From Ruditapes philippinarum (Eukaryota), in assembly GCF_026571515.1 (NCBI RefSeq), contig NW_026864078.1, positions 124,001-188,000 of the forward strand: DNA of 64,000 bases, written 5' to 3'. Of this stretch, positions 39,001 through 48,000 are shown in pieces (within the stretch, counting starts at the first letter, position 1; every line of letters starts with the position of its first letter). Position numbers: made by a program.

Positions 39001-42000
39001 CTTCTGATGTTTTCTTTTAATACTCAAATATGACAAGTCGAAAATATGTTTTGCAGCATGACACATTGCATTTGCTTTACTAAAAAGATAAATTGACTGT
39101 TATAAGATGAATTGATTTGTCTGTTTATATTCAAATAAAAGTATCAAATCAAATTGTTTATATTAACTGCTCACAAAAATAGTCTAACCAATTTCCCAAA
39201 TTAGCACAAATAAACATATTCTTTTAAGATTTGTTAAATGAATTGAAACTGTATAAGAGATGACAGCGATGACAAGGACGTGGCTATCTTCTATCAAAAT
39301 AAGATTAATTATCTACGATATACATGACATTGATACAAGAGTTTTTAGAGCTTGACTTAGCAAACACTCATTTTCAATAAGCAGGTACATTCATGTCGCT
39401 GGTTAATATTCTGGGTCTCTTAAGATATTAAGTTTGGTCCATCAACCTAACAATATACCATTGCAGTAGTCCCACTACAATACAGTTTAACAAAAATGTG
39501 ATCTCATCAAATTTGCGAAAATTTTAACATATGAAATATATTTTTGACATGTACGGTGGCATAGATACGGTGGCATAGAGGTGACATTTGCAGTTTTATT
39601 TTATCTCGTTGCCACGACTTATTATCTAGTGGCCACGACTTATTATCTTGTGGCCTCAATATATTATCTCGTGGCCACGAGTTATTATCTTGTGGCCATG
39701 ACTTATTATATCGTGGCCACGACTTATTATCTCGTGGCCACAAGTTATTATCTTGTGGCCTCAAGATATTATCTCGTGGCCACGAGTTATTATCTTGTGG
39801 CCACGCCTTATCATCTCGTGGCCACGACTTAATATATTGAGGCCACGACTTATTATCTCGTGGCCACGAGTTATTATCTTGTGGCCACGACTTATTTTCT
39901 CGTGGCCACGAGTTATTATCTTGTGGCCACGACTTATTTTAGCCAATGAAAATGGTCGTTTCATCTTGAACAAAATTTAATATCACACTGGCAATAGCAG
40001 TCACAGGAGGTGCGTGTCAATCACCACCATATATTCACTTAAGTTCACGCTTTTTCCCAGAGACGTGCTGAATTTCAGTAAGGGCTAATCAGCTAGTATA
40101 TCACTATAAACTGTATCGACCACATTAACACGTCCACTGAGTAGAGTCTTGTCATCACTAATTGGCCTTCTGTATTCTTATCTTATGGTCCTAACGTTTA
40201 AGGATCAAGTTTCTGTAGATGCAGTTTTTCATAAAATACACTTACTTTTATAAGTGGTCATCACCGGTAGGAAGTTAGCAGTAGCATTGAGTAGTAGCAG
40301 TAACAAAATTATTAAACATGAAGTTGGCAGTAACAGTAGCACAGCAGTAGCAGTAGCAATCAAAGAGGAGATCTTAAAATAATTGATATATACGGTGGCA
40401 TAGAGGTGACATTTGCAGTTTTATTGTATCTAGTGGCAACGACTTATTATCTTGAGGCCTCAAGATATTATCTCGTGGCCAAGACTTATTATCTTGTGGC
40501 CACGACTTATTATCTCGTGGCCACAAGATATTAACTCGTGGCCACGACTTATTATCATGTGGCCACGACTTATTATCTCGTGGCCACGAGTTATTATCTT
40601 GTGGCCACGACTTATTATCTTGTGGCCACGACTTATTATCTCGTGGCCTCAAGATAATAACTCGTGGCCACGACTTATTATCTCGTGGCCACAACTTATT
40701 ATATTGTGGCCTCAAGATATTATGTCGTGGCCGCGACTTATTATCCTGTGGCCTCAAGATATTATCTCGTGGCCACGAGTTATTATCTTGTGGCCACGAC
40801 TTATTATTTCGTGGCCACAACTTATTATATTGTGGCCTCAAGATTTATTACAGCCAATTAAAATGGTCGTTTCATCTTAAATAAAAGTTAATATCACAAC
40901 GGCCGTATATCACACTGGCCAAAGTGTCACAAGAGCGGCGGGTCAAACGCTGCAGTGGTGAATAAGGGGGACGTTTTATAATTGTTATTGTACCCCTTTT
41001 TGTATGGTCAGGTGTTTCTTTCATTTATCTTTAAAGATATACTTTGCTTAAATTTGATATTAGAAAATATTGATAATTGTTACACTGTCTCTTTGTAAAC
41101 ATAAAATAAACATGTTTTGACTTCACATTAGATAAACCTTGCTCACCATTGAATATTAAAATCACAGACATTTATTTAAATCTATGATATTCTAACTTAA
41201 TGCGTCTAACTTGAATAAAGAAATCAATAAACTTTGTACAGGAAGCTGCATTCCCTATAACAGGTCAAGTAATCTTTACTTAAAAAACTGACACTACATA
41301 TATTCAATGGTTAACACCTATATTGTGTAGAATTTTAAACATAACATATCAACTATCTGTGAAGTCAAAACATGTTTATTTTATCTTTACATGTACAAAG
41401 GGACTATGAAACAATTATCAATATTGTCTTAGCGTTTGACCCGCCGCTCTTGTGAAAGCTGTGGCCAGTGTGATATAAGGTCTTAGTGATATTAACTTTT
41501 GTTCAAGATGAAACGTCCATTTTCATTGGCTGAAATAAGTCGTGGCCACAAGATAATAACTCGTGGCCACGAGATAATAAGTCGTGGCCTCAATATAGTA
41601 AGTTGTGGCCTCAATATAATAAGTCGTGGCCATGAGATAATAAGTCGTGGCCACAACATAATAACTCGTGGCCACAAGATAATATCTTGAGGCCACAAGA
41701 TAATAAGTCGTGGCCACGAGATAATAAGTCGTGGCCATGAGATAATATCTTGAGGCCACGAGATAATAAGTCGTGGCCTCAAGATAATTTGTCGTGGCCA
41801 CAAGATAATAAGTCGTGGCCACGAGATAATATCTTGAGGCCACAAGATAATAAGTCGTGGCCACGAGATAATAAGTCGTGGCCACGAGATAATATCTTGA
41901 GGCCACAAGATAATAACTTCTGGCCACGAGATAATAAGTCGTGGCCACGAGATAATATCTTGAGGCCACAAGATAATAAGTCGTGGCCACGAGATAATAA

Positions 42001-45000: not shown

Positions 45001-48000
45001 ATGTTGACGACTACGTTGCAGCTTCTTACTTAGGTCACTGGTACATTGGCAAGATCATGAATTGTGATGATGAGGACAACACATTCGAAATAACTTTCTT
45101 ACAAAAACGCAAACGGATGTTTCAGTGGCCGACAAGACCTGATGAAATCTGGGTGAATTACGAGGACATTTTGTGCAAGGTTTCAACACCTTTGGCAAGC
45201 GGCGGGTCAAAACGCATATTAGTGTTACGAGATGGTGACTTTGAGAGAGTTGAACAAGTGTTTGATCAAGTATAACTAGTAATGATTCATAAAGACATGT
45301 CCGTTACCAGCATCTTCGTTGAGGTGGATGTTGATATTGTTTTCATCTTTTTTTATAGTTTATTGTTCATATATAATACAAATTGCATTTGATGATTACT
45401 TCTGGCGTCATATAAACATGTATTTAGTTGAATAAAGTAAAAATGACATTTACGTAACGGACATTTCAAAAACACTGCATGTAGCAAAAACGACTTTACA
45501 TGTGATTTAACTAAAAAATCCGTTTAAACAAAACAAAGTTACCACAAGCAAAACTCAGAGACGCAAATACAATACATGTTTAGTTAAAAAACAAAAAAAA
45601 ATGTTTATTGTTAAGGTGTATGTGTTCTTTCCAAGTTTGTTTTCCAGTTTTTTCCAAGTTCATTTCTCGCTGACGCTAACATAATATCATTTTTATGTGT
45701 GTTTCGCGTTTAACACTTGTTATGATGTTAAAATAGTTGCTAAGATTTAAATACCTGCATGTTCACAACAGATAATTGTTGTTTTGATTTGGTTATACTA
45801 TAAGTAACGAACATTTCATATATCATTCTGTTTGTATTTTTGATACAATTCCTGTGAAATAACTACATATGGTCAATACTTTGGTTACAATTAATCCTTA
45901 AAAGGTTCAGGTGTAAGATTTAAATAGAAGAATAAACAAGGAACAGACTGAAAAGTTTTTATAATCTTTTTTATTATAATAGATCACATTTTTTACTTAA
46001 ACGACATTATATACAGTTTAACCAAGCACTTAACAATTAAATATTGTTATTTAGTACAACTGTTTTTCTAAATTTTCTAAAGAATAACACTTTGTTTCTT
46101 GTAGTGAAAATATTTAAATGTGTTTTTTACGAACCATTTATTGTTAGTGACCATTTAAAGTTATTGTAACGAACATTTCATGTCAAATTTTGTACATCAC
46201 ACATCTCCTTCTTCAAATGAGGAAATGGCAACAATAACTTATGTTATGTTCAACATTTTCCAGAAAGTTGTTGTTTAAAGGTTATATTTTTCGATTAAAA
46301 TGCTAAATAAAGCATTCTAAAACACTGATTGTCTTGTTTTTGGTACTTCCTTGATGCACCTGCTTATTGAAAATGAGTGAATATGTCAACCTTTTTGACT
46401 GCATCGTACTTTGAAGTAACTGTTGCGCTATTCATCGAGCATCAAAACAAAAATCATCTAACTTAATGAACCCTTGCGATTAAATTTTTTTAATTAATTT
46501 ATTAATTTTTTGTGCAAATGTGCAACTGAATCTATATACAGACATATCAATTGTTAGATATCACGTTAGACCTTCCAATAGAATGGATGGTGGAGAAAGT
46601 ATTCTAAAAAATGAAATGTTCAAAATAAATTGTCTGTCGAATTGTCTGTTGAAAAAGTTTCTTTCAGACAATAAATTAACTTGCAGACATTCACAAATAG
46701 ATTTACGACAATAATATAAAGTTTACGTCTGGAAAAGGAATATGAAATTGAGATTTAGAAATGTGTATTGAATGTCTGAATCAAAATGTTAAAATGTTAA
46801 AACTGATTAGATTTAAATCTAAATAAGTTAAGTTAACCTAATTTTATTTTTCTGTTAGATGTTATTGACTCGTAAATAAGTGTAAATTTCAAGCAACAAT
46901 GATATAAAAGACTTATAAACTTTGTTTAAATTAGCATGATCTTATCTTCTGTAAAATTTAAATTTGACACGTATTCAATAATATCTTTAAACTAACAAAA
47001 CTGACTCAATAAAGAGGAAAATCAACATGAATGTTCTTTCAATAGAATTATCACCGTTGTCAAATACAATGTACATTTGTAATGTTGTTGTACTTTTTAA
47101 AATTGGCATTTAGTCAAAGCTGATCTAAAGAGAATTCATACGCCAATTGTCGTCTATACGAAATTAGAACATATAAAAAGCAAATGTCAGTAATTTTATA
47201 GATTGTACTGGTAATTTAGAATGTTATCAATTCATTTAGTCACAAATAGATGTAATTGTTACAGTAGTACCATTTATAGTTCGTTAATAACCTTAGATTT
47301 CTTTGGTTACTTTCGCATTATTGAGGGCAGACAAATGCATTTATATTTAAACTCGGATGGCACTAAAACTGTGCGTTCTGGATACGGACTATTTGACGTT
47401 TTAACTTATTAATAATATGATTTTATGGCTTATATTTCCATTTTTGTCAACAAATACATTAATCAACTTGTTACACAAGGATATGATGTTTGGTTGACAA
47501 CCTATGTTAACTATATGTTCTAACCTTTATGTAGGCTAAGCGAAAAGATTTTTTGTTTTAGAAATATCAAGTATTTATCTTATAAATATGTTCATATCAT
47601 GGATGGAAAGTAACATAGTCACCATTAGATTGTTGGTTTATTTCAATGCGTTTAATCTTTGACTTTCTGTTGAAAAATGGTCTATGTGACGCTTAAAGTT
47701 TCTAAGACACACTATTTACCAAAATATCGTTTATTGCTCATCAAGTAGTGGCAAAAACAAAGCAGAAATGACCGAACCAGATATATAAACTACAAAAACA
47801 TTTTATACATAAGTAATGGCTGAAAACAAATGTTTTTTTTTCTTTCTTTTTCTTAGCAATTTTAGAAGTTTTTGATGTCAGCTAGGACAGAAAAATAAAA
47901 AAGACAATAATGATATTTATTCTAGTCTAAGAGACAAAACATACAATCATTCATTCAAGTTCTATGCAACTAAAAAAACAACAAGTTAAAGTGTCAAGAG

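What the first reader, a model, noticed from the sequence alone, without database searches (positions are those of the whole stretch)
39365..46379. Intact DNA transposon whose ends and transposase seem to point to different superfamilies
Seen: 26-bp TIRs starting CACTC with one mismatch, only a 2-bp (AA) shared flank, and an open 617-aa ORF. Recalled knowledge: CAC ends with 2-3-bp TSDs typify CACTA/EnSpm (CMC) elements. The DFSENY / TLHP / D..SQYRN / HGKGPC[DE]G.GG.VKR motif series is what I associate with Sola2-like transposases, described with GRG..CYC ends and 4-bp TSDs. Inference: this may be a poorly described lineage that is young and possibly active.
Basis: partly seen in the sequence, partly recalled or inferred. 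Interest (0 to 1): 0.72.

Follow-up and report, generated by a model that had tools for sequence, protein, structure and literature searches.

The report
Deleted Sola-type DNA transposon copy
This is a real cut-and-paste DNA transposon with matching ends, but it is a damaged copy of a widespread marine-invertebrate family whose relatives behave like Sola elements, so its CAC ends do not point to a second superfamily.

Summary
The 7,015-bp element (39365-46379) is real. It has 26-bp TIRs (25 of 26 identical) and a 617-aa ORF with the reported motifs. It is not intact. Compared with a 98%-identical 829-aa relative, it lacks about 212 residues in frame. It also has Glu where 51 of 51 aligned relatives have the third catalytic Asp.

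The protein has an RNase H-like DDD core (AlphaFold pLDDT 87.6), no Pfam family, and a C-terminal Tudor/Agenet-like barrel. It matches no CACTA Pfam transposase model.

Five complete elements of this protein family could be delimited. Three have perfect 4-bp TSDs: L004 AGCA, L006 ACAT, L009 TATT. All five share one terminal motif in one register: GGGTCATTCC, GGGTAATTCC, CAGTCATTCC, then CACTCATTTT in the window and CATTCAAAAT in L002. The window's CAC end is therefore a diverged form of the family's own terminus.

The shared AA flank is at chance level (p about 0.08). The window copy and L002 have no 4-bp TSD, which is unexplained.

Best reading: a non-autonomous deletion derivative of a Sola-type (probably Sola2) transposon. 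Direct comparison with Repbase or Dfam was not possible. Interest is low to moderate.

The parts
39365..39390 (+). Left terminal inverted repeat, starting CACTCATTTTCA
   Evidence: Matches the right arm at 25 of 26 positions. It is unique in the window, with 0 of 100 shuffles giving 2 matches. It is homologous in register to the L002, L004, L006 and L009 termini.
46354..46379 (-). Right terminal inverted repeat
   Evidence: The last subterminal motif lies 213 bp from this end, against 205 bp in L002 and 204 bp in L004.
39561..39987 (+). Array cassette A: shared head (39561-39600), 21-bp tandem array (39601-39938, 16.1 copies), shared tail (39941-39987)
   Evidence: TRF; head and tail homology.
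40386..40898 (+). Array cassette B: the same head and tail, with a 21-bp array at 40427-40848 (19.6 copies)
41486..42095 (-). Array cassette C, inverted, with a 21-bp array at 41534-42060 (25.1 copies). With cassette B and the spacers it forms a large inverted duplication (40427-41127 against 41358-41996).
   Evidence: No comparable arrays were found in L001-L009.
42095..43391 (.). 5' field of 15-bp subterminal repeats (GTAACGAACATGTCA and variants): 6 copies on the - strand, then 3 on the + strand. Includes the palindromic pair at 42995-43030.
   Evidence: 14 of the 18 window matches (up to 3 mismatches) lie in 42095-46180, against 2.56 expected for the whole window. GTAACG-core repeats have the same layout in L001, L002 and L004.
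42700..42838 (+). Putative non-coding first exon (start approximate), ending at a GTGAGT donor at 42839. The putative 5'-UTR intron is 42839-43419.
   Evidence: Read from the sequence. A polypyrimidine tract followed by AG lies 1-4 nt before the ATG in 5 of 5 elements examined: window, L001-L004. This is inferred; there is no RNA evidence.
43422..45275 (+). Transposase ORF, 617 aa plus stop. It is a single coding exon and an in-frame deletion derivative.
   Evidence: AlphaFold model with mean pLDDT 87.6 and pTM 0.75.
43563..43568 (+). Deletion junction (residues A48-A49). About residues 48-260 of the 829-aa relative P0002 are missing here.
   Evidence: tblastn of P0002 matches residues 1-52 and 261-828 only. 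Sequences; codons. The missing segment is conserved across the family. In the P0002 model it holds a long helix (108-152) and a helical bundle (159-239).
44175..44555 (+). RNase H-like catalytic core: D252 (44175-44177), D337 (44430-44432), E378 (44553-44555, GAA). K385 follows 7 residues later.
   Evidence: Column conservation. Secondary-structure order b1-b2-b3-a1-b4-a-b5-a4. Foldseek best hits are RNase H1, retroviral integrase cores, terminase nucleases and IstA.
45012..45224 (+). C-terminal Tudor/Agenet-like beta-barrel (residues 531-601)
   Evidence: Foldseek: PHF19 Tudor TMt 0.80, SMN Tudor TMt 0.71-0.73, PHF1 Tudor, AGDP3 and ADCP1 Agenet, prob 0.97-1.00. Profile hit to Agenet 6ie4_A, E=0.0021. 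Pfam Tudor_4 best E=7.4e-5, below its curated cutoff of 25.8 bits (the L004 ORF scored 18.8 bits).
45293..46180 (.). 3' field of the same 15-bp subterminal repeats (2 on the - strand, 3 on the + strand). The three + copies are spaced 350 and 362 bp apart.

Best explanation
The element is a non-autonomous, internally deleted copy of a cut-and-paste DNA transposon. It belongs to a large DDD-transposase family of marine invertebrates that fits the Sola superfamily, probably the Sola2 group.

Full-length relatives encode one protein of about 830-910 aa with three regions:
- An N-terminal basic, helical region. I infer that it binds DNA and dimerises.
- An RNase H-like DDD core.
- A C-terminal Tudor/Agenet-like barrel. 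I infer that it reads chromatin.

Inferred mechanism: the transposase recognises the short TIRs and the fields of GTAACG-core subterminal repeats, excises the element, and joins it to target DNA cut with a 4-bp stagger. The 4-bp stagger is shown by three relatives.

The window copy keeps both ends and both repeat fields. Its own protein lacks about 212 N-terminal residues and has Glu in place of the third catalytic Asp. It has also gained about 2.5 kb of 21-bp satellite cassettes in its left arm. If it moves at all, it most likely depends on full-length copies acting in trans. The CAC terminus is a diverged form of the family's own terminus, not a CACTA end.
For: - Ends are real and unique in the window.
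- The same geometry is seen in relatives. The distance from the last motif to the right end is 213 bp in the window, 205 bp in L002 and 204 bp in L004.
- Deletion: tblastn of P0002 matches residues 1-52 and 261-828 only, and the missing segment is conserved family-wide.
- Of 57 columns that are at least 90% conserved, the window protein differs at 2: one inside the deletion, and E378, where 51 of 51 others have D.
- D252, D337 and D378 are also conserved in the distant L006, L007 and L008 ORFs. E369 is not.
- Fold: pLDDT 87.6, RNase H-like strand and helix order, with the three residues after b1, after b4 and at the start of a4. The best PDB fold matches are RNase H1, integrase cores, terminase nucleases, IstA and ISCth4.
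- TSDs: perfect 4 bp in 3 of 5 complete elements (L004 AGCA, L006 ACAT, L009 TATT). The per-element chance is about 0.007.
- The terminal motif is in the same register in all five.
- Literature passages read: Sola elements encode a DDD transposase, make 4-bp TSDs and have very variable termini, with TIRs of 11-1124 bp (PMC10741241). Sola2 makes AT-rich 4-bp TSDs (PMC3627910). Sola has no detectable Pfam similarity (PMC5751038). Sola transposases group with RNases H1 (PMC3985635). Sola2 families occur in bivalves (PMC10294476).
- Subterminal repeats: 14 of 18 window matches lie inside the element, against 2.56 expected.
Against: - No direct sequence comparison with named Sola2 transposases was possible. 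Repbase and Dfam were not available. Bao et al. 2009 and Yuan & Wessler 2011 are not held. None of the protein hits listed carries a transposon family name. One search returns no names.
- The window copy itself has no 4-bp TSD (CAAA against AATA), and neither does L002 (CTTG against TTAT).
- The GRG...CYC rule for Sola2 is recalled, not taken from a call. The window end is CAC.
- The function of the deleted segment is inferred only. No PDB fold match to it appeared among the 50 matches printed.
- A Glu at the third catalytic position may still allow activity. This was not tested.
- All relatives with delimited ends come from other organisms, not from other copies in this genome.
Confidence: 0.72

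Rival explanations
1. The CAY-ended sublineage (window element and L002) is a Sola-related lineage that has changed its target joining. It now makes 0-2-bp duplications instead of 4 bp. This is the core of the first reader's idea.
For: Both complete CAY-ended elements lack a 4-bp TSD. The window has AA only; L002 has TG against TT. With one extra base counted at the left end, both show a 2-bp repeat (AA, TT).
Against: - There are only two elements.
- The shared-register 2-bp match is expected by chance in about 0.34 of the 49 registers tried. This is my arithmetic from the 0.083 per-element chance.
- L004, in the same 29-row group, has a perfect 4-bp TSD.
- A mismatched flank pair can also arise from recombination between copies. 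For L002, a 7.6-kb metagenome-assembled contig, it can also arise from chimeric assembly (inference).
Confidence: 0.1
2. The family is not Sola at all. It is an undescribed DDD superfamily that happens to share 4-bp TSDs with Sola.
For: - There is no Pfam family and no PDB sequence hit.
- No listed hit or 106 carries a transposon family name.
- The only family lead is the language-model lead DUF7869. hmmscan did not confirm it: 0 of 52 and 0 of 8.
Against: - A DDD triad, 4-bp TSDs, variable termini and absence of a Pfam match are exactly the published description of Sola (PMC10741241, PMC5751038).
- Two relatives have GGG...CCC ends.
- The family is very large: 9,676 cluster representatives at E<=1e-3. 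Sola2 is already curated in bivalves (PMC10294476). A family this large is unlikely to have been missed.
Confidence: 0.12
3. It is a CMC (CACTA/Mirage/Chapaev) element, as the CAC ends and short flank repeat suggest.
For: The terminus is CACTC and the shared flank is 2 bp.
Against: - None of 52 family members and none of 8 locus ORFs match the CACTA Pfam models that PMC5751038 Table 1 lists for CMC.
- The second and third catalytic residues are only 41 aa apart.
- The terminus is homologous to the GGG and CAG termini of relatives that make 4-bp TSDs.
- The AA flank is at chance level.
Confidence: 0.03

Closest known systems
Sola superfamily, Sola2 group (Bao et al. 2009, not readable here; described in passages of PMC10741241, PMC3627910 and PMC4455052)
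   Same: A DDD transposase on an RNase H-like fold, with no Pfam match. Relatives make 4-bp TSDs, two of them with GGG...CCC ends. It is a single-gene element of about 4-7 kb, with TIRs from 11 bp (L004) to 549 bp (L009). It occurs in bivalves and other marine invertebrates.
   Different: The window copy ends in CAC...GTG and has no 4-bp TSD. It carries a deleted transposase gene, D378E and 2.5 kb of satellite cassettes. Sequence-level membership in Sola2 was not tested.
Sola2-Fanzor chimeric elements of dictyostelids (PMC3627910, passage read)
   Same: The transposase is of similar size (888 aa reported there; 829-913 aa for full-length ORFs of the window's clade here). TIRs are short (12-21 bp reported there), and TSDs are 4 bp.
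   Different: No Fanzor or TnpB gene is present here. No sequence link to those proteins could be made: one search returned only 2 hits, neither from a dictyostelid.
CMC superfamily (EnSpm/CACTA, Mirage, Chapaev)
   Same: The element starts with CAC, and a 2-bp flank repeat is possible.
   Different: There is no similarity to the CACTA Pfam transposase models. The catalytic spacing is short (DD41D/E). The terminus is homologous to the non-CAC termini of relatives that make 4-bp TSDs.
Gypsy-10_Ec32 of Ectocarpus, a retrotransposon with a C-terminal Tudor domain (PMC12477816, passage read)
   Same: It is a mobile-element integrase or transposase that carries a C-terminal Tudor-type reader fold.
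   Different: That element is an LTR retrotransposon of a brown alga. This one is a DNA transposase family of animals. The authors call theirs, to their knowledge, the first reported TE with a Tudor domain.
Kolobok superfamily (PMC9587614, Background section read)
   Same: A DDD/E transposase that is abundant in bivalves and makes 4-bp TSDs.
   Different: Kolobok TSDs are specifically TTAA, with RR...YY ends and a C/DxxH motif. Here the TSDs are AGCA, ACAT and TATT.

Membership tests
Sola superfamily | DDD catalytic triad on an RNase H-like fold (PMC10741241 passage: 'encode DDD-TPase') | tested here: met
   D252 is conserved in 50 of 51 relatives, D337 in 51 of 51 and D378 in 51 of 51. All three are also conserved in L006, L007 and L008. 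The RNase H-like topology is seen in the model, with matching fold hits. The window copy itself has E at position 378.
Sola superfamily | 4-bp target site duplication, at the window copy | tested here: not met
   The flanks are CAAA and AATA. No perfect flanking repeat longer than 2 bp exists in any register within +-3 bp.
Sola superfamily | 4-bp target site duplication, in elements encoding related transposases | tested here: met
   3 of 5 complete elements have one: L004 AGCA, L006 ACAT, L009 TATT. L002 and the window copy do not.
Sola2 group | 5'-GRG...CYC-3' termini (taken from the finding text and my own recall; from no call) | tested here: not met
   The window has CAC...GTG. L006 and L009 have GGG...CCC, L004 has CAG...CTG and L002 has CAT...ATG. 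A one-sided candidate end in L003 reads GAG. All are in one register.
Sola2 group | Significant sequence similarity to curated Sola2 transposases (Repbase, Dfam) | not testable with these tools
   No such library is on hand. The key papers are not held, and supplements are closed.
CMC (EnSpm/CACTA, Mirage, Chapaev) | Transposase of the Transposase_21/23/24 type (PMC5751038 Table 1) | tested here: not met
   None of 52 family members at E<=0.1 and none of 8 locus ORFs at E<=1 match. The window protein has no match at E<=1.
CMC (EnSpm/CACTA, Mirage, Chapaev) | 2-3-bp TSD with CAC termini (feature as stated in the finding text) | tested here: inconclusive
   The CACTC end is present. The AA flank match has chance probability about 0.083, and the 3-bp reading fails (AAA against AAT).
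Kolobok | TTAA-specific TSD and RR...YY termini (PMC9587614) | tested here: not met
   The TSDs of relatives are AGCA, ACAT and TATT. The window termini are CA...TG.
Tudor/Agenet 'royal family' fold (C-terminal domain only) | Five-stranded barrel similar to solved Tudor or Agenet domains, with conserved aromatic positions | tested here: met
   - Foldseek: PHF19 Tudor TMt 0.80 (rmsd 1.6 over 62 columns); SMN Tudor TMt 0.71-0.73, prob 1.00.
- Sequence profile: Agenet 6ie4_A, E=0.0021.
- Pfam: Tudor_4 best E=7.4e-5, below its curated cutoff of 25.8 bits (the L004 ORF scored 18.8 bits).
- Conserved aromatic positions: Y17, W21 and F40 are invariant, and W or Y precedes the invariant P51 in 7 of 7 sequences.
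- Ligand binding was not tested.

The most novel reading that the evidence does not exclude
The CAY-ended branch of this Sola-like family (window element, L002) may have shifted its target-joining stagger from 4 bp to 0-2 bp. TSD length would then not be fixed within a transposase family. Across the clade, the transposase also carries a Tudor/Agenet-type histone-reader domain that might steer integration to marked chromatin. That would make it a DNA-transposon counterpart of chromodomain integrases.
Probability: 0.12. Interest if true: 0.55.

Novelty: new member of a known kind. Interest (0 to 1): 0.3.

Why it matters
As first posed, the finding is resolved and ordinary. The ends and the protein belong to the same family, and the copy is a damaged derivative, not an active founder of a new lineage.

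Two things remain of some value:
- It shows how far the terminal trinucleotide can drift within one transposase family (GGG, GAG, CAG, CAC, CAT) while the adjacent TCATT-type motif and the element geometry stay fixed. Classifying non-autonomous elements by their first bases would mislabel this one as CACTA.
- The family-wide C-terminal Tudor/Agenet-like barrel may be an unreported case of a chromatin-reader fold on a DNA transposase. A 2025 paper (PMC12477816, passage read) calls a Tudor-bearing Gypsy element, to the authors' knowledge, the first reported TE with such a domain. My full-text searches found no prior description for DNA transposases. The Sola literature that I could not read may still hold one.

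Tried and rejected
- Pfam on the window protein at E<=1, on 52 relatives and on 8 locus ORFs: no transposase family.
- PDB sequence search with the single protein: 0 hits. With the A1 profile: only weak hits in the C-terminal Tudor-like region, E>=0.16.
- ESM Atlas: the recurrent lead is DUF7869. hmmscan did not confirm it, and no paper mentions it. It is kept as a lead only.
- Searching for a named relative. The L006 ORF search gave one named hit, 'Cc8L18.2-like protein', and no paper mentions that name. The L008 ORF search gave only 2 hits. No dictyostelid link to the Sola2 elements of PMC3627910 was obtained.
- Empty-site paralogue for the insertion site within the window: none.
- Other copies or MITEs with this TIR in the window: none.
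- TIR searches in L001, L003 and L005: no credible pair. The contigs are probably too short.
- Rfam and tRNA scans of the element: nothing.
- Fold search for the deleted N-terminal segment: no match to it among the 50 matches printed.
- Bao et al. 2009 and Yuan & Wessler 2011: not held.
- Not opened: the supplementary files of PMC10294476 (curated bivalve Sola2 library) and PMC3627910 (Sola2 transposase alignment and element ends). Both may bear on the classification.

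
Full report
**Observation**

The window is about 30% G+C and contains no N. At 39365-39390 (+) and 46354-46379 (-) there are inverted repeats that match at 25 of 26 positions, with the first 22 identical. Allowing up to 3 mismatches, the 22-mer occurs only at these two places in the 64 kb. None of 100 shuffles gave two matches.

The flanks read GCAAA|CACTC and GAGTG|AATATG. Only AA is shared. That has a chance probability of about 0.083 at this base composition. No register within +-3 bp gives a perfect repeat longer than 2 bp.

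**Not intact**

The best relative is P0002 (829 aa, 98% identical). It matches the window only over its residues 1-52 and 261-828. The missing segment of about 212 residues is conserved across the family, so the window copy has an in-frame deletion with its junction at 43563-43568.

In the AlphaFold model of P0002 (mean pLDDT 82.6), the missing part contains a long helix (108-152) and a helical bundle (159-239). No solved fold matched it among the 50 matches printed. A role in DNA binding or dimerisation is therefore only inferred.

A1 is a hand-picked alignment of 52 of the hits. Of its 57 columns that are at least 90% conserved, the window protein departs at two. One lies inside the deletion. 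The other is E378, where 51 of 51 other sequences have Asp.

**What the protein is**

No Pfam family matches the window protein at E<=1, any of the 52 A1 members at E<=0.1, or any of the 8 ORFs from related loci at E<=1. That includes the CACTA models that PMC5751038 (Table 1, read as a passage) assigns to CMC. The PDB sequence search gave 0 hits.

The family is very large. HMMER found 9,676 cluster representatives at E<=1e-3. The named hits are molluscs, Lingula and a sea urchin, so the host is probably a mollusc (inference).

The AlphaFold model of the window protein has mean pLDDT 87.6 and pTM 0.75. It shows the RNase H-like order b1-b2-b3-a1-b4-a-b5-a4. D252 follows b1, D337 follows b4, and residue 378 opens a4. 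An invariant Lys lies 7 residues later.

D252, D337 and D378 are also conserved in the distant L006, L007 and L008 ORFs. E369 is not. The triad is therefore DDD.

Foldseek against the PDB gave no hit at E<=1e-3. The best hits were RNase H1 (4ibn), retroviral integrase cores, herpesvirus terminase nucleases, IstA and ISCth4. No hAT, mariner, piggyBac or RAG/Transib structure appeared among the 50 matches printed. PMC3985635 (passage read) places Sola transposases in the clade that holds RNases H1.

**Relatives with delimitable ends**

All are on contigs filed under bacterial or archaeal MAGs. I take them to be mis-binned eukaryotic DNA (inference). Four contain complete elements.

| Element | Coordinates and length | TIR | Terminus | Flanks or TSD |
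|---|---|---|---|---|
| L006 | 7998-12136, with an 857-aa ORF | 446 bp | GGGTCATTCC / GGGTAATTCC | ACAT |
| L009 | 8803-14052, decayed ORF | 549 bp | GGGTAATTCC | TATT |
| L004 | 563-6694, 6,132 bp | 11 bp perfect | CAGTCATTCCA | AGCA |
| L002 | 1355-7547, 6,193 bp | 21 bp perfect | CATTCAAAATCA | CTTG / TTAT, no TSD |

In L006 and L009 the repeat reads 5 bp if the first G is counted.

Placed in register, the termini are GGG-TCATTCC, GGG-TAATTCC, CAG-TCATTCC, CAC-TCATTTT (window) and CAT-TCAAAAT (L002). The window and L002 TIRs agree at 13 of their first 21 positions (my count on the strings printed). A one-sided candidate end in L003 reads GAGTCATTTCA.

The element geometry also matches:
- The left end is 389 bp (L002) and 388 bp (L004) from the first subterminal motif.
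- The last motif is 205, 204 and 213 bp from the right end in L002, L004 and the window.
- All of these are my subtractions from the coordinates.

So 39365 and 46379 are the true ends. CAC is a diverged form of the family's own terminus.

**Tree**

A quick IQ-TREE was run on 60 rows: the 52 A1 sequences plus 8 locus ORFs. L009 was left out as decayed. The root was set on L007 and L008 by choice. The window protein pairs with P0002 (SH-aLRT 100). The window and L001-L005 fall together in a 29-row group (support 92). L006 lies outside a 57-row clade (support 99).

Within the window's own group, one complete element makes a 4-bp TSD (L004) and two do not (the window and L002). A clade with consistent CAC ends and 2-bp TSDs is not supported.

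**Classification**

- Passages in PMC10741241 say that Sola elements encode a DDD transposase, are flanked by 4-bp TSDs, and have very variable termini with TIRs of 11-1124 bp.
- PMC3627910 reports AT-rich 4-bp TSDs for Sola2.
- PMC5751038 notes that Sola has no Pfam match.
- PMC10294476 curated 14 Sola2 families in bivalves.
- Kolobok is excluded, because it makes TTAA TSDs (PMC9587614, Background section).

The family therefore fits Sola, probably Sola2. However, the GRG...CYC rule is recalled, and no comparison with Repbase or Dfam sequences was possible. Bao et al. 2009 and Yuan & Wessler 2011 are not held, and supplements were not opened.

**Other anatomy**

- A 15-bp repeat (GTAACGAACATGTCA and variants) occurs 14 times between 42095 and 46180, out of 18 window matches, against 2.56 expected. 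It brackets the ORF.
- GTAACG-core repeats with the same layout flank the ORF in L001, L002 and L004. The L006-L009 loci show no such cluster. They are the likely transposase binding sites (inference).
- A polypyrimidine tract followed by AG lies just before the ATG in 5 of 5 elements examined. With the GTGAGT at 42839, this suggests a conserved 5'-UTR intron.
- The left arm holds three cassettes of 21-bp repeats with shared heads and tails, two direct and one inverted. These are absent from the related loci.

**C-terminal domain**

Residues 531-601 form an all-beta barrel. The evidence for a Tudor/Agenet fold is:
- Foldseek matches PHF19 Tudor (TMt 0.80, rmsd 1.6 over 62 columns), SMN Tudor (TMt 0.71-0.73), PHF1 Tudor, and the AGDP3 and ADCP1 Agenet domains, with prob 0.97-1.00.
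- A3 is a 7-sequence profile of the domain: the window plus L001-L006. L007 and L008 were left out because their match to P0002 stops before this region, and L009 as decayed. It hits the Agenet protein 6ie4_A at E=0.0021.
- Pfam Tudor_4 reaches E=7.4e-5 in 2 of 7 sequences, below its curated cutoff of 25.8 bits (the L004 ORF scored 18.8 bits).

PMC12477816 (passage read) calls a Tudor-bearing Gypsy element the first reported TE with a Tudor domain, to the authors' knowledge. My full-text searches found no report for DNA transposases.

**Unexplained**

The window copy and L002 both lack a 4-bp TSD. Possible causes are recombination between copies, chimeric assembly (plausible for the metagenome contig L002, and around the inverted cassettes in the window), decay of the flanks, or a real change of stagger. 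Only other copies from the host genome can decide.

**Verdict**

This is a real transposon, but a deleted and probably non-autonomous copy of a Sola-type family. The apparent conflict between its ends and its protein dissolves on comparison with relatives.

Noticed in passing
window 45012-45224 (residues 531-601 of the ORF); also L001-L006 ORF C-termini: The transposase family carries a C-terminal Tudor/Agenet-like barrel with conserved aromatic positions. It may be an unreported chromatin-reader domain on a DNA transposase.
   Followed up: partly
window 39561-42095: Three cassettes of 21-bp tandem repeats (unit contains GTGGCCAC) have identical head and tail sequences, two direct and one inverted. 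Cassettes B and C with their spacers form a roughly 700-bp-armed inverted duplication that could fold back or confuse assembly. They are absent from the related loci.
   Followed up: partly
window 43360-43421; L001 about 1577-1636; L002 about 3440-3499; L003 about 727-786; L004 about 2642-2701: A splice-acceptor-like polypyrimidine tract followed by AG lies 1-4 nt upstream of the start codon in 5 of 5 elements. This suggests a conserved 5'-UTR intron in this clade.
   Followed up: partly
L002 696-716 (- strand): A third TIR-like end (CACTCAATATCAATCAATCGG) lies 640 bp upstream of the L002 element. It looks like the right end of another related element that runs off the contig.
   Followed up: no
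L001-L009 (records titled Sedimenticola sp., Nitrosopumilaceae archaeon and 'bacterium' MAGs): Contigs filed in prokaryotic MAGs encode this eukaryotic transposon family. Two of the contigs are over 800 kb. They look like mis-binned host or eukaryotic DNA.
   Followed up: no
L006 7998 and 12136; L009 8803 and 14052: In both GGG-ended elements the base after the right TSD is G. The flanking repeat therefore reads 5 bp (ACATG, TATTG) if the first G of the left end is counted. This may be coincidence or a target preference.
   Followed up: no
window 9977-10639 (-) and 14238-17379 (+): There are fragments of non-LTR retrotransposons: RVT_1 hits at E about 1e-16 to 1e-17, plus an endonuclease domain. 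These are unrelated to the finding.
   Followed up: partly
window 11605-12543 (+), 16738-17379 (+), 51757-52167 (+): Open frames of 136-312 aa have no Pfam match. They were not examined further.
   Followed up: no
protein P0112: One relative of 1,072 aa carries a precomputed OTU-like domain (PF02338). It may be a fusion or a gene-model artefact.
   Followed up: no
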